Shown: in pieces, positions 1-43,760 of the stretch | Layout of the letters: each line of letters starts with the position of its first letter | Numbering within the stretch: the first letter of the stretch is position 1 | NCBI GenBank assembly: GCA_973895155.1 | Contig: OZ316896.1 | Location: 2,356,001 to 2,420,000, forward strand | Length of the DNA: 64,000 nucleotides | Direction: 5' to 3' | From: Marsupella aquatica | Lineage: Eukaryota; Plantae; Marchantiophyta | Position numbers and translations under genes: made by a program | Notes under the pieces: model-generated | Seen by the model: only the letters and a program-made list of their open reading frames with translations | Told to the model about the DNA's origin: nothing | Database searches by the model: none

Positions 1-461
1 TGTTGCCAATGTGTGGCGGCATCTCGATGTGTTAGCCTAGACATGGTAAATTTGTTCTGTAACCAAGAGTTTGTTGTCCACATTTCTGGATCGTCAAACA
101 ACTTTTTCACAAATTTGCCAAACTCTGCTTTGGGCATCAAAATCTCCAATTCTTTGGCGTTGATCGGCCATTCATGATGAGGAGGTTTCACGTTTTCTGT
201 TGTGATGTTCCACTCCAAATTGTCACTTTCATCCTCCAACTTAGTTGAATTTGGCAAGGGGTTTTTATCGCCCGTACCAATGTCACAAGCATTGGGTTCG
301 GACTCATCTTCCAACCCTTTTGTTGGAGATAGCGAGTTTCCATGAATATCATGATCAAAATGATTGTAATAAGCATCTTGAGCGTCTTGCATGTATAAAT
401 GAGCATATTTGTCTTTTGGAACTTTTTCATCATCATCAGAATCCAAATTCCATTTCGTCAT
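1..461 (-). CDS. 5' part of an unknown ORF (>=153 aa, open to the window edge), probably element-encoded
   Basis: ATG at 461, 11 nt after a U-rich acceptor (tttgtag, AG ending at 473). Translates without stops as MTKWNLDSDDDEKVPKDKYAHLYMQ...HHEWPINAKELEILMPKAEFGKFVKKLFDDPEMWTTNSWLQNKFTMSRLTHRDAATHWQ to base 1. It is absent from the ORF track because there is no stop in the window. No domain recognised. Confidence 0.6.
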   Translation of the reverse strand, partial: MTKWNLDSDDDEKVPKDKYAHLYMQDAQDAYYNHFDHDIHGNSLSPTKGLEDESEPNACDIGTGDKNPLPNSTKLEDESDNLEWNITTENVKPPHHEWPINAKELEILMPKAEFGKFVKKLFDDPEMWTTNSWLQNKFTMSRLTHRDAATHWQ

Positions 462-629
462 GATTGCAAGATCTACAAACATAAAAACATATTTAAAACA
501 AATCCAAATATAATGAAATGGCATGGCATAACAATATAAATAAATAAGATACATATCACTTTATAATTACCATCTGATTGTTTGTAACTTAATGACTTCA
601 TGTAATAATTAGAGGGTCAAGTTTCATCT

Positions 630-2281
630 CTAATCTCTAAGATAAGGACTATTTTGGGCAAATAGTCTACAATCCGGGAATGTCCGAACCATCTTCAAAC
701 TCCAAAAGGCACACTCTTGCCTTTTCTTCACCTCGGTGGACATCATATCACGGACCATTGCTTCCAATTTAGGACCATGCTCCAAGGTATTCCAACCCCT
801 ACCCAACCACCGTGTCCTCATGGACGCTCCATCCCAATTCTCTAAAAAGAGACTCTCAAAAATGTTGCCCAAAGCATATATATCAGTGGCAGCACTATAC
901 TCTACTGGGGTGGGCGAAATAAGCTCTGGAGCTAATTGAGGATATTGTTTTTGATAAGCTACAACTTTATCTGTAGGAGTAGACCACATTTGATTCTCTG
1001 GTAGTCTGCACTGTGACTTATGTTTGGACAAGCCAAAATCGCATAAGCCAACATACACCTTGATGGCTACATCATCTTCATACTCAAAATGTAGAAGAAC
1101 GTTTCCAAAGTGAAGATCACAATGGAATCGGTTGTGATCATGCAAATATTGTAACGTCTCAAGCAGCGCCAACGCAATTCCCAATCGGTTCTCCAGAAAA
1201 AGTTTCTTTTCAGAAACAAACTTGAAATCAATGTTGGAGGAACCTTGTGATTTCCCTTTGTTCTTTGATCACAATTCACATCTATCTATGAAGCTTCCCA
1301 AATCACCTCCGTTGTAGTGATCATACACAAGTCTTGGTGGATCATCAATCCTCATTGCCAAAGCCCCAACAATTCCCTTGTGATTTAGTCCTCCCATAAG
1401 CATTTCTTGTAATGCATCTGTCCTCCTCTTATGCTTATCTCCTTTTTTGAATCTTTTTGCCACTAGTGTGACATTCTTCGGAATAAGAGGGCAATCTAAT
1501 ACGTGACAAGTGTACACCTCCCCTTGCACATCTATCCCGATGGAATGAGCATTTTGCACCTGCTCAGGCTTCAAGAAATGGATACTCCTCACATCCGGAA
1601 GTACACGTGATGGACGTGTTCCTTTTCCATCGTTTCTGATATTCACATCCCCAAATTGCATCACCTTGTTTACATATTTGACGTTGCTTTCAGCTTTTGC
1701 CATTGCCAACTCTTTACTCCAAGTTGATAACAAGTCCCTCTTGTGCTTAAACATCCTAGGATTTCCAAGCATTGTAGTATCATCCATGTTTAATTTGGCC
1801 ACCATCAAATCCCAAATATTGATCTCCAAATTAACAGCCAAGTTGTCAATGAATCCTCCTACTTTCTCACACTCAAGTACAAATGCATCCTTCTGCTCCC
1901 GTGTGATAGTGTCTTCATCCTCTACACTTTCACGCAAATAACAAGTCATCTCGTTCACAAACTTCTTGTATCCTTTTAGACCGTGCCTTGTAAAATCCAT
2001 CTCGAACGCATTCTCCTCATATTGCTTAGGTTGAGTGTAATGATATAATATTCCTTTCCAGATCGCCACTACTGCATTAAAGCGAACCTGTTTCACCTCA
2101 ACATTGCCCCCTCTTCATTTCTTCTTCCCACTGAGTTTGCCAACAGTTGATTTATACTCAAGAGTGTTTCGTGCATTCCTGAGTGCTTGGAGAGCCACAT
2201 GGTCCGGTTCAGCCCCTTCATCAAGAACCCTAGTAATCATTCCAGCAACTGCCTGTATTCTACACGACTAGTCGAGTCCAT
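630..2281 (-). pseudogene. Intronless protein kinase (~550 aa; N-terminal extension plus C-terminal kinase domain), disrupted
   Basis: ORFs 1269..2096 and 630..1184 are in one frame, separated only by TGA at 1269-1271. Another in-frame TGA lies at 2115-2117 (KKK*RGG). A probable 1-nt frameshift near 2240 would join MDSTSRVEYRQLLE (ATG 2281) to MITRVLD. Kinase motifs in order: GIDVQGEVY, LVAKRF, ALQEML, YNGGDL, HCDLHFGNVLL, CDFGLS, LAPEL, TDIYALG. Confidence 0.85.
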
Positions 2282-2434
2282 TGTGGCTTCCCTGGAATGG
2301 TGTGTGAGATGAGTACAACCTTACCCACTCAATCAACTGCCCACAAATACCCTGTGAATCACGGATTCACGTGATTATTACGCACTGGATTATTGTTTCT
2401 GGATTTCATTGCAATTCATTTTTATTAATCTTTT

Positions 2435-2546
2435 GAATGTCATAACGATAAAAGAAGGGAGAACACATTTGTGAATTATCCCATGCCGAGCCTAAGCTCC
2501 AAGCATGCGCACAAAAGTTTTCTTTTCTTTCACAGTTATGACATTC
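2435..2546 (-). ncRNA. Long hairpin 1 of a 3-unit structured RNA array (pre-miRNA-like)
   Basis: Inverted arms gaatgtcataac (2435-2446)/gttatgacattc (2535-2546) and tttgtg/cacaaa enclose the 36-nt conserved module at 2474-2509. Confidence 0.6.
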
Positions 2547-2580
2547 CTACTTGGATCTATGTGATAGCTATAATTTATCA

Positions 2581-2718
2581 ATCATTTACCAATTGAGTGA
2601 AAAGAATTTTGAAGAATCGTGACACCCATGTAAAATATCACATGCCGAGACAAAGCTCCAAGCTTGCGTACATGGGTTTCTCTATCTCCATAAATCTTTC
2701 ACTCAATTTGCAAATAAT
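2581..2718 (-). ncRNA. Long hairpin 2 of the structured RNA array
   Basis: Inverted arms aattgagtgaaa (2591-2602)/tttcactcaatt (2697-2708) and cccatgta/tacatggg enclose the 36-nt module at 2633-2668. Confidence 0.65.
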
Positions 2719-2720
2719 AA

Positions 2721-2828
2721 TAAATTGTTAAGGTGATATTAAAATACTCCTGTACGAAATATCCCATGCCGAGCCGAAGCTCCAAACACGCGCGCACAGG
2801 AATCTCTTTATATCCCTCCATTAATCTA
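2721..2828 (-). ncRNA. Long hairpin 3 of the structured RNA array
   Basis: Ungapped imperfect inverted arms 2721-2756/2793-2828 (cctgtacg/cgcacagg at the top) enclose the 36-nt module at 2757-2792. The minus strand gives a GAGC-UUCG-GCUC tetraloop and several G-U pairs. Confidence 0.65.
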
Positions 2829-2844
2829 AAATTCATTTTTTTAT

Positions 2845-2955
2845 GATTTAGGGCACAAACTCATTTTAGGATTTGGATTTAGGGCACAAACAAAGTTTAG
2901 GGTTTTAGGTTTAGGACACAAACAAAGTTTAAGGTTTTAGGTTTAGGGCATAAAC
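2845..2955. repeat. Degenerate telomere-like (TTTAGG/TTTAGGG) tandem units mixed with GCACAAAC
   Basis: tttagggcacaaac, tttagggttttaggtttagg, tttaaggttttaggtttagggc. Confidence 0.7.
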
Positions 2956-3260
2956 AAAACATAAACAACATACACTATACATACATTCCAAAAATACATT
3001 CATACATACATTCCAAACAATATACATTCACCATAATATAAATCAAAACTTAAATCAAAACTTAAATAAAAACATTCACCATAACATAAATCAAAATCAA
3101 AACATATATCATAACAAAAATCAAAACTTAAATCAAACCATATACCATAACATAAAAAAAACATCAAATACAAAAAAACTTACCCTATACACTTCGAGCC
3201 TTCTTTCTCCTTCCTTCCCTCCTTCCTTCCTTCCCTCCTTCCTTCCTTCCTTCTCCTCCC
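2955..3260. repeat. A/C-rich low-complexity tract followed by a (CCTT)n microsatellite
   Basis: Repeated aaatcaaaactt and catacattcca units; ccttccttccct repeats at ~3205-3255. Confidence 0.75.
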
Positions 3261-3374
3261 CCCTTGGCCTCCACAATACACAATGAGCCCCTCCCTCCCC
3301 CTCTCCCCCCTTTTATGGTCCCGGCTCAACTCCCGGCTCCTGCTCTCGCTCCTGGCTCCCCTCTCGCAAACCCT

Positions 3375-3850
3375 AATTGCGCCTCCGCCTCCCCCTTTGG
3401 CCCGGGAACCCTAATCCCGGCCCGGCCCGGCGCTCCTTCCCGGCCCGGTCCATATTCTCCCGGCCCGGTCCACTTCCCCCCCTCCGCACTTCCCGGCCCG
3501 GCCCTCCCTCCCGACCCGGTCCACTTCCCCACCCTTCCCGGCCCGGACCGGGGTCCCTCCCTCTCCCCCCTTCCCCACCCTTCCCGCCCCCCCTCCCCAC
3601 CCTTCCTGGCCCGGACCGGGGTCCCTCCCTCTCCCCCCCTTCCCCACCCTTCCCGCCCCCCCTCCCCACCCTTCCCGGCTCGGACCGGGGATGCTTCCTC
3701 TCCCCCCCTTCCTCCCCACCCTTCCCGGCCCGGACCGGGGCTCATTTCCTCTCGCGCCCCCGGGCTCCTCCATTCGCGGCCCTCTATCACATCCCGGCCC
3801 GGTTCTAGTTTCTCCCGGTCCGATCTCGTCACTGGCCGGGACCGGCCGGG
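3375..3850. repeat. GC-rich imperfect tandem repeat (~60-66 bp units, CCCGG cores; G-runs on the minus strand)
   Basis: cccggaccggggtccctccctctccccccttccccacccttcccgcccccctccccacccttcc and variants repeated; this explains the overlapping Pro/Gly-rich ORFs. Confidence 0.85.
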
Positions 3851-4282
3851 ACGACATATGTCATCTATCGTCTCAAATACTTGTATTTGCCCGACAAGTC
3901 CAAACCGGGCTTATGGGTAATAAAGCTCCTCCAAACTCAAGCTTAAGCTCTTGTTTTGGGGGGCATCATTGTTTTTCAGCCAGATTGAGCATCATATCCC
4001 ATAGTGGTCTCTGAACAGACCGGACTTCATTGTTACTTAATGCCCTTCGTGATTTTTCTTTTATATTTTTGAGAGCAAAATGTCCTGGATAAGATTGATT
4101 CATCTCCCTAGGAAGATTCAGTCTCCTCTACTTTTACTAAAGTTAGATCCCCAGGTTAAATCAAACCAAAAATGTCTCACCTTTCACTATAGTATGGTCT
4201 TGTTTTTCGACTCTTGTGGGCAATAATATCTCCTCAAAATTTGAGCTAAAGCTCCCTTTATGGGGGAATCATATCCAATACT

Positions 4283-4685
4283 TGTTAACCAAAGACCCGG
4301 GCAAAGATGACATTCACAATGACATGCCCAGAACCGTCCATCCAACTAACAAGCTAGTAGCAACAGAGATCATGGTTCAACTCAATTGAGGCTACGTCCA
4401 CAAGAACACACAAAAGCTTTATTACATTCCAGGCCTGCCAGCCATACTAGGTCACTCTCCACAATAGAAGTTTTATCTATCTCTCAACTATGCTCGACTT
4501 CCTACTCATAAGCAGCAACTTGCTTGTGCATTTAGTACGTACCGTGCAACACAAATAACCTAACCAAGTCCACAATTAAGGTTGGCCTAACTGTAACTAG
4601 AAATGTAACTCTAAGCACACCTAAGAGTACACAGGAGAGTAAATGCCTAAGTAAGCAATGATCTCTCCCTTGACTCTGGTCAACA
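4283..4685. mobile_element. Probable solo LTR (copia-like)
   Basis: Starts TGTTAACCA and ends TGGTCAACA (TG..CA with short terminal inverted repeat). The internal motif tggttcaactcaattgaggctacgtccacaagaacacacaaa is homologous to ~42040-42165. No clear TSD. Confidence 0.55.
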
Positions 4686-5464
4686 CACACACTGATGGAC
4701 CAAACAATAAGTGTGACCACCCTTCTTGAATTGTTTTGCCTAATCACAAAATTGGGGCTAAGTAAAAAAAATTCTGATACAAAACAGGCATTTGTGAGAA
4801 TAGACTTTATTTCAGAGTTTTGAAAGCGAGGAGCAATACATTGAGTGCTCTTCACATTGCGGAAGTGCGGATTTTCAAAGATGTCAAAATGAGCCATAAA
4901 ATTGTCAACTTTCATGGATGGATGAGACTACGGTGAAGATCGATCAGAGGGCTATCAATGGGCACCTATATGTACACACGAAAGTCAAGTTTCTTGAGTG
5001 AGTCCTTGTCGTGCAAATTGTGGTTTAATCCTCTCTCCCTCTGCCATATGATGTGGTTCCGAGTTTAAACATGGTGAGGATACTCTAGGTATGACTTCGA
5101 TCAAGTCCTGAGCCTGTCCAAAGTCTCCGCACCCTAGTGTGCAAAACATCAAGCACCGCTTCATGCACGATGAGACTATGCCACCATAGCTCCTGGAGAG
5201 CTTCAAGCGCAACCATGTAGCTCCATATCTCCAATCAAGACCAGGCAACCATAGCTTGAGAGCTTCAACCCATGCCCAAGACAGTTGCAAAGTCCTCCAT
5301 AGCAACAAAGATTGCAAGAATAAGATTGCAACTTAGGACTGGGAACTGAAATTTGCATGAGGAGCAGTAGTTTAATTAATAACATGTCTGAGATCTCACA
5401 ACGATTGGCAAGCTCAATTGAAATAGACAGATTCAAGATGAATTGAAAGAGCTGGAAAATCCAT

Positions 5465-6285
5465 GACTGTGTGTGTGAAGCTGACGATTACTTTGTCCAG
5501 AAGTGGGATGGTACTGGAGTGAATGGCCTGTCCTCAATTCAGAAAAGGATAGCAGCACTAGACAACTATCACTTGGAGTTTTGGCAAACCGCCATGGATG
5601 AGTACATATTGCCAGATTGGAGCAACAAGAGCTCTGGATTCTCTCAAAAACAATTGCAGATCTATTTGAGAGGTCTTTTAGAAGAAATACTTGAGGCAGC
5701 CTACCAAGGAAACTGTGGAGAGATAACTGGAAATTCTTGAAGGAAGAAGATTTCCTGGTGTGTTTGCTTCAATAGATTGTATGCATTATTTGTGGAAAAA
5801 TTGCCCTGTTGCATGGCAAGGACCCTTTACAAACAAGGACAAATATAAGTCAATTGCATACCATCTAGATCTGATATGCTTATTTTGGCCTCCCTGGATG
5901 CGACAATGATCTGAACGTTCTGGACACTCAGGTCCCCACTGGTGAACAAATCTTCAAAGAAATGAGGCTCATCAACTGAAATTTACTCTGAATGGAACAT
6001 AGTATGATAGATATAACTTCCTCACTCATGGTATCTATCTACTAGACTACTCTATTTTTATTAAAACAGGGTGAAGCAAGGAAGTGGTCTTTAGAATGCC
6101 ACTGAAGAAGGTGCACAAAAGGACTTTGAGAGAAAGTTTGGAGTGTTGCAAGCTAGTTTAATTTAGCATTATTCAAAATACTGTGAGGCTCCACAACCAA
6201 GCTGTGATCAAAGCCATTGATATCCTTCTTGCTTGTGTAATTTAACATAACACGATAATAGAGGATGAGAGATTGAAGAGTTTAC
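5465..6285 (+). pseudogene. Decayed PIF/Harbinger transposase (plant ALP1/HARBI1-like DDE nuclease)
   Basis: Fragments DDYFVQKWDGTGVNGLSSIQK, AMDEY, FPGVFASIDCMHYLWKNCPVAWQG, GLPGCDNDLNVLD, KDFERKFGVLQA and ACVI*HNTIIEDE, with stops and frameshifts. Confidence 0.9.
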
Positions 6286-6754
6286 CTCAGGAGTGGGAAC
6301 AAGGTCGAGCAACCTGGGCAGACTAGGCAAGGGTCACAGAGACTCACAACTCCTGATTGGAAAGAACACTTGGCCAATCCAGTGTTGAGCATATTAGGGC
6401 TGTCAAACAAAAAGGTTATATATCAATTTGATTATGTTGATGCGATGTAGTTTTTTAAATTTGGAATTCTAAATGAACAATCTGAGCTTGGCAATTTCAC
6501 AATTCTGTCTCAATTTGTCTCATTTCTGCATGCACAACACAAATTCTGAAATCTGGTCAAAACTACCTGACAATTAAAATTGTGGGAAAGTACAATAGGA
6601 AATCTGCCATGGGTCCTCGGTCAGGCAAATGAAAGACCATGGATTTCACAGATTATGCTACTTAAGGGAAAAACAAACCTGAAATGTGAGCTACAAAATG
6701 TCCACCACACTACTGTCATTGCTAATTGGCACCTAAGGTGTGGTACTTGTAAGT

Positions 6755-7019
6755 CTACATCAGGGCATGTCAGCTAACATGTCAGCTAAAGTCTACATAG
6801 ATTAGGGCATGTCAAAGCACACTTGTAACTCAATAGGGGGTGTCAAAGCACAGTTGTACCTGAGTTATGGCTCGATCAGAACATGGCTCGATCAGAACAT
6901 AAAACATACTTATGGCCAAGACAGAATAGTTATAGGTGACCAAAATTGTACCCCGTAAGGGTGGTACATCCAAAAAAATTAAGCCATAACCAATGTAACT
7001 TTGACATGCCCTGATGTAG
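6755..7019. mobile_element. MITE-like inverted-repeat element (Tourist/PIF-like)
   Basis: ctacatcagggcatgtca (6755-6772) is inverted at 7002-7019. gggcatgtcaaag (6805, preceded by TTA) is inverted at 6999-7011. Related ends occur at ~6837 and ~7377. Confidence 0.5.
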
Positions 7020-7438
7020 TGTTATGTCCTAATTAGGACTCAAAACATAAAACTCTATTATGGCCAGGACATAATCAGTATGGGCTACCAAAATTAGGCT
7101 ACCAAAATATAAGAGAGATATGCTTAGTAGACCCCCTTATGTAAAAATTTTGCTTAATCAACCCCCTCAATACTTTTCCCCAATCTGGATCGTTGATGGA
7201 CCTTTCGATCTCAGATCTGGACCGTTGATAGACCTCATGGGGGTTGATCAAGTCCCGGATCAAGTAACAAATTTCATTTTGGGGTTAGATCAAACAAATA
7301 CCTCCAAACTATAATCTATGGGTTACCAAAATAGATACCCATAAGGGTGATAGCTACAAAAACATGATCAGGATAACTTTGACGCGCCTTATTAGTTCTG
7401 ACTTTCATTCATGAACTTCTCACTTTCATTAATTAATG

Positions 7439-7473
7439 AACTTGGGTGTAACTTGGGTGTAACTTGGGTGTAA
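7439..7473. repeat. 11-bp tandem repeat (aacttgggtgt) x3
   Basis: Read directly from the sequence. Confidence 0.9.
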
Positions 7474-7787
7474 GGAGAAACGGCCAACTTGAGTACCAAA
7501 CTAACAGGAAAGCCACAGACGACAGAGGCAGCCGGGGAGAAGAGGATCGTGGCAGGGTTTAGGGTTTAGTGGAAAAGTCTGGAAACTTGGAAAGCGTACA
7601 CACTTGGTGTTAGTTTGTACCAGAAATCATGTAGATTCTCGCAAAAAGCAAAAAGCGCGCGATGCCGGGGCGTGCTCCAGGACTCCAGGAATGTTTTAAA
7701 GCAGCAGCAAGCATCGACAGGGAAGCTCATCGGTCTCAAGCTCACTCGATCCCAGCACAGTCGCCGCTAGCTCCATCCGACTATCCA

Positions 7788-8153
7788 ATGGCCTACCGCG
7801 GGACGCTTCTATCTCTCGTGCTCGTGGCACTCGCGGCAGGCGTGCTCATCGACGGAGTGAGCGGCGCATCGTCGCTTGTGCGGCGCCGACTGGCAGCTGT
7901 AGTACCTTCCACCACCTGCCCTGCTCCATGCGTACCGCCACAAGTCTGCTGCAAATTAGCAGGAACTCTGTACCATTGCGTTAACACCGCGACGGACATT
8001 AACAACTGCGGAACCTGCAGTAATGTTTGCAGTATCGGTGCAATTTGCTGCCAAGGTACGTGCGCGAATCTGCTAACAGACCCCAACAACTGTGGAGGTT
8101 GCGGCACCAAGTGCACACCGCCGAAGGTATGCCATTATGGCGGGTGCCAGTAA
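7788..8153 (+). CDS. STIG1-family secreted cysteine-rich peptide (121 aa, single exon)
   Basis: Signal peptide MAYRGTLLSLVLVALAAGVLIDGVSG, basic RRRL site, and STIG1 pattern CC...CVNTATDINNCGTCSNVC...CCQGTCANLLTDPNNCGGCGTKC...CHYGGC. Confidence 0.9.
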   Translation: MAYRGTLLSLVLVALAAGVLIDGVSGASSLVRRRLAAVVPSTTCPAPCVPPQVCCKLAGTLYHCVNTATDINNCGTCSNVCSIGAICCQGTCANLLTDPNNCGGCGTKCTPPKVCHYGGCQ

Positions 8154-11842: not shown

Positions 11843-12720
11843 TTAGCATCGTTCAATAGTCTCCTGCCCACCCCCAATCTCCACATGCACGTCCCTCCGT
11901 CTCCTGTGCAGAAAGTTGGTGAGCATAGCAGCAGCCTTGTAAGTTATGTTGAACTTAGGCTTAACTAAGTCCAATCTTTCATTAGCCTCCACCACTTCTG
12001 TTTCATCCCACAATACCCCACTCCACCTTACCCTGTATCCAGCATGCATTTTGTTGAAGACTTTCACTGGGCTTTGATCTAAACCCATAGCCATGATTTC
12101 AACCTTGCTGAAGCTTCACATTATGAACTTCTCCATGCTTGTGTATCCCTGATCATCAAAGACAAATTCAGAGTATCCTGGTTTGTTTGCAACAACTGTA
12201 GCCTATTTTGTTCACCCAAGAGCCCTTCAGAATTTTATTTTTATTTTTTAATACTTTTAATAGGAAATCTGTGAAACCCATAGAAAGGGAGCGGTCTATC
12301 ACAACATTTGAATTCAATATCTATCAGTCTCATCTCAAGTTTAGGATTTAGAGTTTATCTCAAGTGAGGTACCACAGCCATGAGTTAGCACACAACCATG
12401 CCTCTCTGGGCAGAATCCTTCAGAATTGTAACATCATGAAAACTCCCAGGATATCCTGGGTCTACATAAATGGACAAACCAGTATGGTCAACCAAGACAA
12501 TAGAATTCAAGCAGTATTTTCCAACCTTGGAACCATTTGCTGTGGTTTGCATCGCAAAAGGCCTACAAATTTGCAAAGAGTTTCATCCACAGAACCAATA
12601 CATCCTGAAATTTTGTAATGACCTGGCCTACCTCAATTCTCTCCTCAACAGTAGGCCAACAAATCTCATCGGCCATGGCTTCATTGACATAAGATGCACT
12701 ATACATTGGATCATCACAGA
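11843..12720 (-). pseudogene. Decayed Harbinger-type transposase (DDE_Tnp_4/HARBI1-like)
   Basis: Fragments NEAMADEICWPTVEER, YCLNSIVLVDHTGLSIYVDPGYPGSFHDVTILK, DQGYTSME, FNKMHAGYRVR and AAMLTNFLHRRR; frameshifted and interrupted by an AT-rich segment at ~12200-12380. Confidence 0.85.
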
Positions 12721-20214: not shown

Positions 20215-20745
20215 ACCTCTAAAACTGGACCTCTAAATTGGCAAGTGTTATTACTTGGTGACACCCCCTCAGGTTTTGGGTACCTTTGATTTAAACCGCC
20301 ACTAGCCAAAGACAAAAACGTGGTTACACAGATTTCACCATTTTTAGTATTTTTCCCAAAATTGTGGAGCAAAGTCTCAGGGGAGAGGAGAGGAATGTGA
20401 AAAAGTGAGAAGCTTTGGACACTCCTCCTTTTATATGGCTAGTGGTGGCTTAAAGTCTATCACCGTCTGATCACTCATGAATGTCAATACCCCTTTTCAT
20501 TTTGGACCTCTAAATTGGCAAGTTTTATTACTTGGTCACACATTAACCCTGAGGTTTTGGGTACCTTTGATTTAAGGTCTATCAACCATCTGGATCACCA
20601 TGAACATCAATACTCCTTTTCATTTTGGACCAACCGTCTGGATCACTCATGAACATCAATACCCCTCGTCATTTTGGACCAACCTTCCAAAAGGGGTATT
20701 GATGTTCATGAGTGATCCAGATGGTTGATCAATACCCCTTTGTAT
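20215..20745. mobile_element. Small repeat-rich/foldback element just upstream of PRL1
   Basis: ggacctctaaattggcaag...ggtacctttgattta at ~20227 and ~20504. gatcactcatgaacatcaatacccc occurs three times directly and once inverted at 20693-20727. Confidence 0.55.
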
Positions 20746-21653: not shown

Positions 21654-21867
21654 TGACCATCTAACTATACACAATCACAATCCAAAGCTACTCTTCAAGG
21701 CCTATGGTCTAGAGTGAAACCTCTACATTGTGACTCTGGGGCGTAAATGAAGTTGGGCTTTGACCATCTAGCTATACAATCACAATCCAAAGCTACTTTT
21801 CAAGGCCTATAGTCTAGAGTGAAACCTCTAGACTGTGACTTTGGGGGCGTAAATGAAGTTGGGGCTA
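21654..21867. repeat. ~107-bp direct duplication of a dispersed repeat family
   Basis: tgaccatcta.ctatac..aatcacaatccaaagctact...gtctagagtgaaacctcta...gcgtaaatgaagttggg occurs twice. Related sequence lies at ~22995-23045 and, inverted, at ~60683-60735. Confidence 0.75.
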
Positions 21868-43045: not shown

Positions 43046-43182
43046 AAATTTTGCATGTATTATTGTAGCCTTAGTGGGAAATTTTGCATGTATTGTTGTA
43101 TATTGCATGCATTATTTTAGTCTTAGTGGGAAAATTTGCATGTATTATTGTATTTTGCATGCATTATTCTAGCCTTAGTGGG
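43046..43182. repeat. Minisatellite of ttttgcatgtattattgta...ttagtgggaa units
   Basis: Three imperfect copies seen directly. Confidence 0.8.
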
Positions 43183-43760
43183 ATACAGGCCAAGGCTGGA
43201 GATACCGGGCTCCCCAAAGGCCTCGATATTACTCTGACCAATACCGGGCGCAGATACAGGGGACGGTATCCACAGTACTTTATTACACTCTCGACCTTCA
43301 AGAAGAAGATAAGCCTTCGCCTGCGAGCCTATCAGATCCGTAGCAGCTCCATCACCTCATACAATCCCCAAGTTCCCAATTCCCTTCACACAGGAGGATC
43401 CTCTCTCTATCTCTCTCACCCACTTCTTCTTTTCACTTGCATTTCTAAATTCTTCTCTATGACTCTATGAATTCTTCCTTCTGAAAGCACGAGGGAAGAT
43501 CGAAGCCCAACAATCCGAGCGTGGGATTCACTCTGATCCATACGGACTTCAGAAAGTCACTGGGGATTCCATTGATTCGTCTCTGTTTTGGCAATCCCCA
43601 GGATTCCAATTGCGCCCAGTAGAGGAGAGAGTGATAAGTGGGAGAGAGGCATTGGGAGACGACCGTATTGGATGCGGAGGAGGTGGAGCACTTACTGGGT
43701 TTTGATTGTCTGGTAGGCAGACGGAGAGCTTCTCAGCTTGCTTGCTCGCAACTTTATATA

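What the first reader, a model, noticed from the sequence alone, without database searches (positions are those of the whole stretch)
2435..2828. Array of three long hairpins with a constant 36-nt apical module and variable stems: candidate element-encoded small-RNA/guide cassette
Seen in sequence: a 36-nt unit occurs three times, at 2474-2509 (aattatcccatgccgagcctaagctccaagcatgcg), 2633-2668 (aaatatcacatgccgagacaaagctccaagcttgcg) and 2757-2792 (aaatatcccatgccgagccgaagctccaaacacgcg). Copy 1 matches the other two at 31/36 and 32/36. The flanks differ between copies, yet each copy's left flank is the reverse complement of its own right flank for ~35-50 nt, starting right at the module edge (tttgtg/cacaaa, cccatgta/tacatggg, cctgtacg/cgcacagg). 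On the minus strand the module folds as a ~8-bp stem, UG bulge, GAGC/GCUC stem and UUNG tetraloop (canonical C-UUCG-G in copy 3), with a 6-nt AUAWUU bulge at the junction. Many arm mismatches in copies 2 and 3 become G-U on the minus strand; copy 1's outer arm favours the plus strand. The array sits in the predicted first intron (2352-3183) of the kinase transcript. Inference: ordinary tandem duplication would not replace stems while keeping pairing and a fixed cap, so this looks like selection on RNA structure. It could be a constant processing/protein-binding handle with swappable payloads, such as a polycistronic miRNA-like cluster or a guide array. I do not recognise the arms as known miRNAs or the cap as a known Rfam family.
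Basis: partly seen in the sequence, partly recalled or inferred. Interest (0 to 1): 0.88.

Follow-up and report, generated by a model that had tools for sequence, protein, structure and literature searches.

The report
Three RNA hairpins sharing one cap
A repeated, likely mobile stretch of plant (probably liverwort) DNA carries three long hairpins with the same 36-letter tip but unrelated stems, and these are predicted to be cut into different small silencing RNAs, although no RNA data could be found to show that.

Summary
Three hairpins at 2435-2818 share a 36-nt cap (30-32/36 identical) on unrelated, self-complementary stems; all fold best on the minus strand (z -8.3, -7.2, -5.7). They lie in a predicted 5' intron of a broken kinase gene of a dispersed multi-copy family (10 proteins on 9 scaffolds of the liverwort Calypogeia fissa; hundreds of diverged contigs in four public runs). 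Other copies supply new evidence: 21 of 31 listed substitutions in hairpin 3 leave the site paired on the minus strand (13 on plus; nulls expect 12.5-17, p 0.0005-0.03). Two contigs of a third organism keep cap and base but replace the roughly 20 nt between them. No TSD, Rfam match, target in the window or literature hit was found. The best reading (0.45) is a polycistronic pre-miRNA-like cluster on a probable transposon, with a shared loop-side processing handle and diverging duplexes. Against it: known plant precursors conserve the duplex, not the cap. No small RNA, transcript, target or transposase was seen, so a protein-binding or decoy RNA stays a close rival (0.3).

The parts
2435..2546 (-). 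Hairpin 1 (3'-most on the predicted RNA): about 38-bp imperfect stem plus cap
   Evidence: (I16)
2474..2509 (-). Cap 1: 8-bp stem with one mismatch, 2-nt bulge, 4-bp stem, UUAG loop, 6-nt 3' bulge
2584..2715 (-). Hairpin 2: about 48-bp imperfect stem plus cap
2633..2668 (-). Cap 2 (UUUG loop; least perfect of the three)
2728..2824 (-). Hairpin 3 (5'-most): about 27-bp stem plus cap. In other copies 2743-2756 and 2793-2799 vary, while 2800-2815 and 2728-2742 show no listed variant
2757..2792 (-). Cap 3 (C-UUCG-G loop)
2352..3183 (-). Predicted 5'-UTR intron holding the array and AT-rich short tandem repeats (2839-3176)
   Evidence: splice-site letters; repeats; no RNA evidence
630..2281 (-). 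Kinase gene (about 550 aa in intact relatives: helical N-terminal domain plus Pkinase domain), broken in this copy by a frame change near 2240 and stops at 2115-2117 and 1269-1271
1..601 (-). Second predicted gene starting 29 nt after the kinase stop (ATG 601, predicted intron 570-473), running off the window; no family or homologue found
3184..3320 (-). Predicted first exon and promoter end (purine-rich; a TATA-like word near 3315, read by eye)
   Evidence: sequence; inference
3330..3860 (.). GC-rich block of CCGG-containing repeats in both orientations, resembling subterminal or promoter repeats of DNA transposons (resemblance recalled)
   Evidence: (D2, D4)

Best explanation
A repeated, likely mobile element of a plant that is probably a liverwort carries, in the predicted first intron of its kinase gene, three hairpins with one shared 36-nt cap and unrelated paired stems, which are likely precursors that Dicer-like enzymes would cut into different small silencing RNAs, with the cap likely acting as the handle that sets the cut. 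Shown: the hairpins, the shared cap, the multi-copy context, and substitutions in other copies that favour pairing on the strand that would be transcribed with the kinase. Inferred: Pol II transcription and splicing; a first cut a few base pairs below the 6-nt bulge (cap 36 nt plus 3 bp gives 42 nt and 15 bp, the size reported for short loop-to-base precursors); release of 21-24-nt duplexes from stems of 27, 48 and 38 bp; and targets among host or rival-element transcripts, as for rice miR820. The stems would diverge because their targets differ or move, while the cap is held by a sequence-reading factor or by gene conversion between repeats.
For: (1) Three stable hairpins of pre-miRNA size, 97-132 nt; the whole array folds at -147.8 on minus against -108.1 on plus. 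A near-perfect inverted repeat elsewhere in the window shows no strand bias (-72.9 on both). (2) G-U pairs in the MFE folds: 15 on minus, 3 on plus. (3) Of the 40 listed variants on hairpin 3 (9 more hidden), 31 fall on paired or opposed sites; 21 of these leave the site paired on minus and 13 on plus. Nulls: 14.3 expected, p 0.0007 (positions redrawn); 12.5-17.0 expected, p 0.0005-0.03 (letters redrawn). At the left-arm positions of two mismatches (2745, 2764), all 4 listed variants are transversions that create a pair. 2750 and 2799 change together in a deep X1 contig (inferred from the depth totals). (4) One arm stretch (2800-2815) has no listed variant while its partner varies at 4 sites (2743, 2745, 2747, 2749), as a guide and its passenger would. 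(5) In organism C two contigs keep the base of hairpin 3 (to 2736) and a cap but carry 19 or 22 other letters between them (table 5c). The loose ends left and right of caps in organism C are complementary by hand alignment (about 17 of 22 positions, table 7; consensus rows of 4 and 3 contigs, not linked). (6) In organism C the array bins are deeply covered while the bins on either side are almost empty (2001 and 1356 against 2 and 4). (7) Precedents: miR820 in CACTA elements (PMC3459959, abstract), non-homologous polycistrons (PMC2812943, passages), intronic pre-miRNAs common in Marchantia (51 of 95 in genes for known proteins; PMC9291395, passages).
Against: No small RNA, transcript or degradome data could be examined. 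Bologna et al. found no sequence conservation outside the duplex in short loop-to-base precursors (PMC3787264, passages); here the pattern is the reverse. No common 5'-U register across the three hairpins at a fixed distance from the cap (read by hand). Best target penalty in the window is 4.5, and no host transcriptome was available. The cleanest strand test, transitions at Watson-Crick pairs, is only 10 against 4 (p 0.09). The variant nulls are partly circular, because other copies reverting to a better-paired ancestor count as 'kept'; 10 of 31 variants leave a mismatch. Cap variants are many (20 of 36 sites; these mix all three cap types and decayed copies). Stem lengths differ (27-48 bp), and the two replaced segments differ in length. 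No transposase, TIR or TSD was tied to the element, so 'mobile' rests on dispersal.
Confidence: 0.45

Rival explanations
1. The caps are binding sites for a protein (element-encoded or host) displayed on long stems whose sequence does not matter. The array would regulate splicing, export or translation of the element's own transcript, or act as a decoy that soaks up DCL/DRB proteins, and would yield no functional small RNA.
For: Sequence conservation is in the cap, including its bulges and loop, not in the stems: 7 of 12 cap pairs never vary and none changes on both sides, while 5 of the 10 pairs below it do. Bulge-plus-tetraloop caps are typical protein ligands (recalled). Stem lengths vary, and the two replacements in organism C differ in length.
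Against: A binding site needs only a short stem, whereas 27-48 bp of pairing are kept. One arm stretch looks more constrained than its partner. No RNA-binding domain was found in the element's proteins.
Confidence: 0.3
2. Neutral DNA foldbacks: a short element or a snap-back (template-switch) event copied the flank next to a fixed 36-nt sequence into an inverted repeat three times, and the hairpins are now decaying; or they are MITE insertions.
For: The window holds another long inverted repeat of unknown function (20628-20730). C>T and G>A changes dominate the copies, as in methylated, decaying repeats. Some of the 'kept' variants are simply the ancestral state.
Against: No TSD at any hairpin. 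MITE families conserve their arms (recalled), and here the arms are the variable part. G-U pairs are 15 against 3 by strand and minus-strand pairing is favoured among variants. The cap is conserved to a third organism where the flanks are not.
Confidence: 0.1
3. Single-stranded DNA hairpins read by a replication or transposition protein (an HUH-type origin or recombination site), strand-specific like attC sites.
For: With DNA parameters the minus strand also folds better in all three (-27.0/-22.7, -23.7/-19.5, -13.3/-7.1). Constant tip on variable stems is the layout of rolling-circle origins (recalled).
Against: The array is internal, in a predicted intron on the sense strand, not at an element end. 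UUCG-type loops and G-U pairs suit RNA (recalled). No HUH or helicase gene was found in the part of the element seen.
Confidence: 0.07
4. A poison-antidote (drive) cassette: the kinase and the hairpin RNAs act as toxin and antidote, or the reverse, to bias the element's inheritance in spores.
For: An RNA repeat array upstream of an enzyme gene on one transcript recalls type III toxin-antitoxin loci (recalled). Hairpin small RNAs act in Teosinte Pollen Drive (PMC11390486, search listing only; details recalled). The kinase family is restricted and multi-copy.
Against: The arms do not match the kinase or second gene of this copy (best penalty 4.5 or worse). There is no genetic evidence, and this copy's kinase is broken.
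Confidence: 0.08

Closest known systems
Rice MIR820 in CACTA transposons (PMC3459959, abstract seen)
   Same: A hairpin precursor carried inside a multi-copy element; a possible counter-silencing role.
   Different: miR820 is one miRNA family with a conserved mature sequence and a validated target (OsDRM2). Here there are three unrelated stems under a shared cap, and neither product, target nor element class is known.
Plant non-homologous polycistronic MIRNAs, e.g. Ath-MIR859-774 (PMC2812943, passages seen)
   Same: Several hairpins with unrelated stems within a few hundred bases on one strand.
   Different: The passages seen report no shared apical sequence and no location in a mobile element; the clusters there have small-RNA support.
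Short loop-to-base precursors, MIR156/160/171b (PMC3787264, passages seen)
   Same: A structured terminal region of about 42 nt with a small loop above the duplex; here cap plus 3 bp gives 42 nt and 15 bp.
   Different: The paper reports no sequence conservation outside miRNA/miRNA*; here the terminal region is the conserved part and the stem diverges.
Artificial miRNA backbones, and tetraloop-ruler RNase III substrates such as yeast Rnt1p (recalled)
   Same: A constant scaffold or loop that fixes the cut, with a replaceable duplex.
   Different: The first are engineered and the second are fungal; no natural plant array of this layout turned up in the searches.
MITEs and foldback elements (recalled)
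   Same: Short inverted-repeat units in introns and repeats.
   Different: No TSD; arms differ between units while the centre is constant.

Membership tests
Plant MIRNA (pre-miRNA) | Single-stranded foldback able to hold a 21-24-nt duplex with few mismatches | tested here: met
   stems of about 27, 48 and 38 bp below the cap; over all three hairpins 114 Watson-Crick, 15 G-U and 14 mismatched opposed positions
Plant MIRNA (pre-miRNA) | Precise miRNA/miRNA* excision seen in small-RNA reads | not testable with these tools
   no RNA holder listed; only contigs could be laid
Plant MIRNA (pre-miRNA) | Duplex is the best conserved part of the hairpin | tested here: not met
   between the three hairpins and towards organism C the cap is conserved and the stem is not; within close copies one arm stretch, 2800-2815, is conserved
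Plant MIRNA (pre-miRNA) | Complementary target with cleavage | tested here: inconclusive
   only the 64-kb window could be scanned; best penalty 4.5
Short loop-to-base precursors | Structured terminal region of about 42 nt with a small loop | tested here: inconclusive
   cap 36 nt plus 3 bp fits, but the cut site is unknown
Any Rfam family (miRNA, snoRNA, ribozyme, cis-element) | Match to a covariance model | tested here: not met
   0 matches at E <= 10 in 1-8000 against 4227 families
MITE | Target-site duplication and conserved terminal inverted repeats | tested here: not met
   no duplicated flanks, apart from a palindromic TTAA at both ends of hairpin 3 that is part of the stem; arms unrelated between units
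DNA transposon (host element) | Dispersed multi-copy family | tested here: met
   451, 881, 506 and 542 contigs laid on 1-6000 in four runs, about half or more of them under 90% alike; 10 kinase proteins on 9 Calypogeia fissa scaffolds
DNA transposon (host element) | Transposase, TIRs and TSD | tested here: inconclusive
   the element runs off the window's left end; the second gene has no match; a broken Plant_tran (Harbinger-type) gene at about 5685-6272 may or may not belong to it

The most novel reading that the evidence does not exclude
A selfish element of liverworts carries a natural modular small-RNA cassette: an expandable array of hairpins in which a sequence-specific cap, read by a dedicated factor, programs Dicer-like cutting, while the roughly 21-nt payload between cap and base is replaced over evolution to aim at new host or rival targets. 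It would be a plant transposon's own programmable guide array, paired with an element-encoded kinase.
Probability: 0.2. Interest if true: 0.9.

Novelty: new variant of a known kind. Interest (0 to 1): 0.68.

Why it matters
Plant miRNA precursors are thought to be recognised by shape, with sequence conserved in the mature duplex. A family that conserves the loop-side cap and varies the duplex would point to a sequence-reading processing step. It would give a natural, compact backbone for multiplex artificial miRNAs. It would also offer a testable case of a mobile element carrying several small-RNA weapons at once. Even under the rival reading, the cap is an undescribed, selected RNA motif on an undescribed kinase-bearing repeat family of liverworts.

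Tried and rejected
No whole genome is held for this window, so full-length copies could not be aligned and no covariance model worth calibrating could be built (3 sequences). Exact-pattern scans: 0 hits in viral contigs; 16 in metagenome contigs, all chance, with 22-25 of 36 identity to the cap, no cap-type hairpin and no kinase; 15 in prokaryote genomes, judged chance from nhmmer scores of 13-20 bits against 35-39 for the true caps. Kinase scan of viral contigs: 13 pattern matches, 0 relatives. No RNA holder listed. Rfam: nothing. Earlier findings of this scan: nothing in 4 look-ups. Paper searches: the cap sequence, 0 papers; kinase-bearing bryophyte transposons, 0 and 7 unrelated; conserved-loop, divergent-mature clusters, 0; one search was too loose to use. 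Supplements were not searched, so liverwort miRNA tables there could hold these arms. Second gene: no homologue in 2 searches (96 and 3 candidates) and no Pfam family. Kinase folds and Atlas: generic kinase matches only. The N-terminal helical domain was barely tested, and its single-sequence model was unusable (pLDDT 40). Considered and dropped by eye: H/ACA or C/D snoRNA (no pocket, no consistent boxes), hammerhead or other ribozyme cores, histone stem-loop, IRE. Translating the arms by hand gave only a 6-residue likeness to a recalled deacetylase motif, which is no evidence. An earlier count said 21 of 32 variants; the computed figure is 21 of 31.

Full report
Observation. The window holds three copies of a 36-nt unit at 2474, 2633 and 2757, 30-32 of 36 identical. 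The core pattern never appears in 100 shuffles of the window. Each copy is the tip of its own hairpin, with z-scores of -8.3, -7.2 and -5.7 on the minus strand. On that strand the cap folds alike in all three: an 8-bp stem, a 2-nt bulge, a 4-bp stem closing a UUNG loop, and a 6-nt bulge on the 3' side. The stems below it are about 38, 48 and 27 bp long and unrelated to each other (6 comparisons, 74-325 of 500 shuffles as good). In register, 5 of the 10 pairs next to the cap change on both sides between the copies, while none of the 12 cap pairs does (three sequences only, structure taken from them). No TSD flanks any unit and Rfam gives nothing.

Context. The array lies between a GT at 3183 and an AG at 2352 on the minus strand, upstream of a kinase gene (ATG 2281, stop 630-632; Pkinase E 2e-12). 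The gene is broken in this copy. Intact relatives are about 550 aa, with a helical N-terminal domain. The family has 10 annotated proteins on 9 scaffolds of the leafy liverwort Calypogeia fissa (one of them 77% identical over part of the query) and a distant member in Riccia fluitans; the rest are unnamed metagenome proteins. The host is therefore probably a liverwort (inference). A second predicted gene starts 29 nt after the kinase stop and leaves the window; it has no match. GC-rich repeats lie at 3330-3860. Contigs of four public runs pile up on the region as hundreds of diverged pieces, so this is a dispersed repeat family. Its class is open: no transposase or terminus could be tied to it, and a broken Harbinger-type transposase at about 5685-6272 may be a separate insertion.

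Evidence from other copies. No genome was held and collection scans gave only chance hits, so the comparative evidence comes from two read-laying runs. On hairpin 3, 40 variants were listed and 9 hidden. Of the 40, 31 lie at paired or opposed sites. After the change, 21 are paired on minus and 13 on plus; two nulls expect 12.5-17.0, p 0.0005-0.03. At the left-arm positions of two mismatches (2745, 2764) all 4 listed variants are transversions that make a pair. Six of the 7 G-U pairs have a Watson-Crick variant. 2750 and 2799 change together in a deep contig (inferred from depth totals). Against this, 10 of 31 variants leave a mismatch, the unbiased test of transitions at Watson-Crick pairs is 10 against 4 (p 0.09), and reversion to a better-paired ancestor inflates the count. 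In the window itself G-U pairs number 15 on minus and 3 on plus, whereas an ordinary inverted repeat at 20628-20730 folds equally on both strands. Variation is uneven: 8 of 14 and 4 of 7 sites vary next to the cap, but 0 of 15 and 1 of 21 further down (listed rows only, and the distal left arm is GC-poor).

The third organism (run X5) covers the array bins deeply but hardly the bins on either side (2001 and 1356 against 2 and 4; depth is not a copy number). Its caps have many different loose ends (18, 5 and 6 contigs at 2477, 2625 and 2629). Two of its contigs follow hairpin 3 to 2736, then carry 19 or 22 other letters, then a cap (table 5c). Its left and right loose ends pair at about 17 of 22 positions by hand, but they are unlinked consensus rows. 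In the two close organisms, loose ends show that hairpin-1, -2 and -3 type arms recur as diverged relatives. The payloads are thus not exchanged copy by copy; they drift faster than the cap and are replaced over longer times.

Mechanism. The strand under constraint is the one that would be transcribed with the kinase, which points to RNA. Long imperfect stems of 27-48 bp are more than a protein-binding site needs and are the size of plant pre-miRNAs. The cap plus 3 bp equals the 42-nt terminal region reported for short loop-to-base precursors (PMC3787264, passages). I therefore favour a polycistronic pre-miRNA-like cluster in which the cap fixes the first cut and the stems carry different guides (0.45). 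Its likely purpose, by analogy with rice miR820 in CACTA elements (PMC3459959, abstract), is to dampen host silencing or rival elements. Every step from transcription onward is inferred. The same paper on loop-to-base processing reports no sequence conservation outside the duplex, the reverse of what is seen here. No 5'-U register is shared by the three hairpins, and no target was found in the window. A protein-binding or decoy array remains a close rival (0.3). Neutral foldbacks or MITEs (0.1), a kinase-RNA poison-antidote pair (0.08) and single-stranded DNA sites (0.07) are less likely.

Comparison and novelty. It would work like MIR820 and like the non-homologous polycistrons of Arabidopsis (PMC2812943, passages), and intronic pre-miRNAs are common in Marchantia (PMC9291395, passages). 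It cannot be filed as a MIRNA family: precise excision was not testable, and the usual conservation pattern was tested and not met. Searches for the cap sequence, for kinase-bearing bryophyte transposons and for conserved-loop, divergent-mature clusters found no description; supplements and subscription journals were not covered.

Verdict. The feature is real, appears to be under selection as a minus-strand RNA structure, and sits on an undescribed multi-copy kinase element. Its function is unproven. Novelty: new variant of a known kind, with about a 0.2 chance of a modular guide cassette. Interest 0.68.

Noticed in passing
window 20469-20730: Near-perfect inverted repeat (39-nt arms, 95% complementary, 6-nt bulge; -72.9 kcal/mol on both strands, z about -12) built from a three-copy 40-nt direct repeat; no strand bias, used here as a control.
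   Followed up: partly
window about 5350-6400 (+): Broken PIF/Harbinger-type transposase (Plant_tran, E 1e-28 at about 5685-6272), facing away from the kinase gene; whether it belongs to the same element is open.
   Followed up: partly
window 4373-4700: Start of a very deeply covered repeat (depth 1000-10000 at 4201-4600) with many different loose ends at 4373-4421 in all four runs laid; probably the end of another high-copy element.
   Followed up: no
window 1-601 (-): Second predicted gene of the element, 29 nt behind the kinase stop, with an acidic N-terminus and no homologue found; contigs in X1 and X2 join 578 to 1103, a deletion derivative.
   Followed up: partly
proteins P0046, P0053, P0056, P0062, P0051: A wider family of 440-520-aa kinases with helical N-termini and a similar C-terminal end, including one from Riccia fluitans; possibly further element-borne kinases of bryophytes.
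   Followed up: partly
window 1444-2539, X2 record 12 and X1 record 6: Contigs of 1328 and 989 nt at depth 329 and 184 that match kinase and array only in patches: a younger, more uniform subfamily that would be the best source of intact copies.
   Followed up: no
window 7635-8153 (+): STIG1-like small cysteine-rich protein gene (Pfam Stig1, E 6e-14).
   Followed up: no
window 50010-51788 (-): 592-aa open frame resembling the C-terminal half of a SIZ1-type SUMO ligase (resemblance recalled, not tested).
   Followed up: no
window 12242-12412 / 60210-60340 and 21668-21846 / 60679-60735: Dispersed short repeats shared in inverted orientation across the window, and 62-nt and 52-nt tandem triplets at 61932-62117 and 43048-43203.
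   Followed up: no
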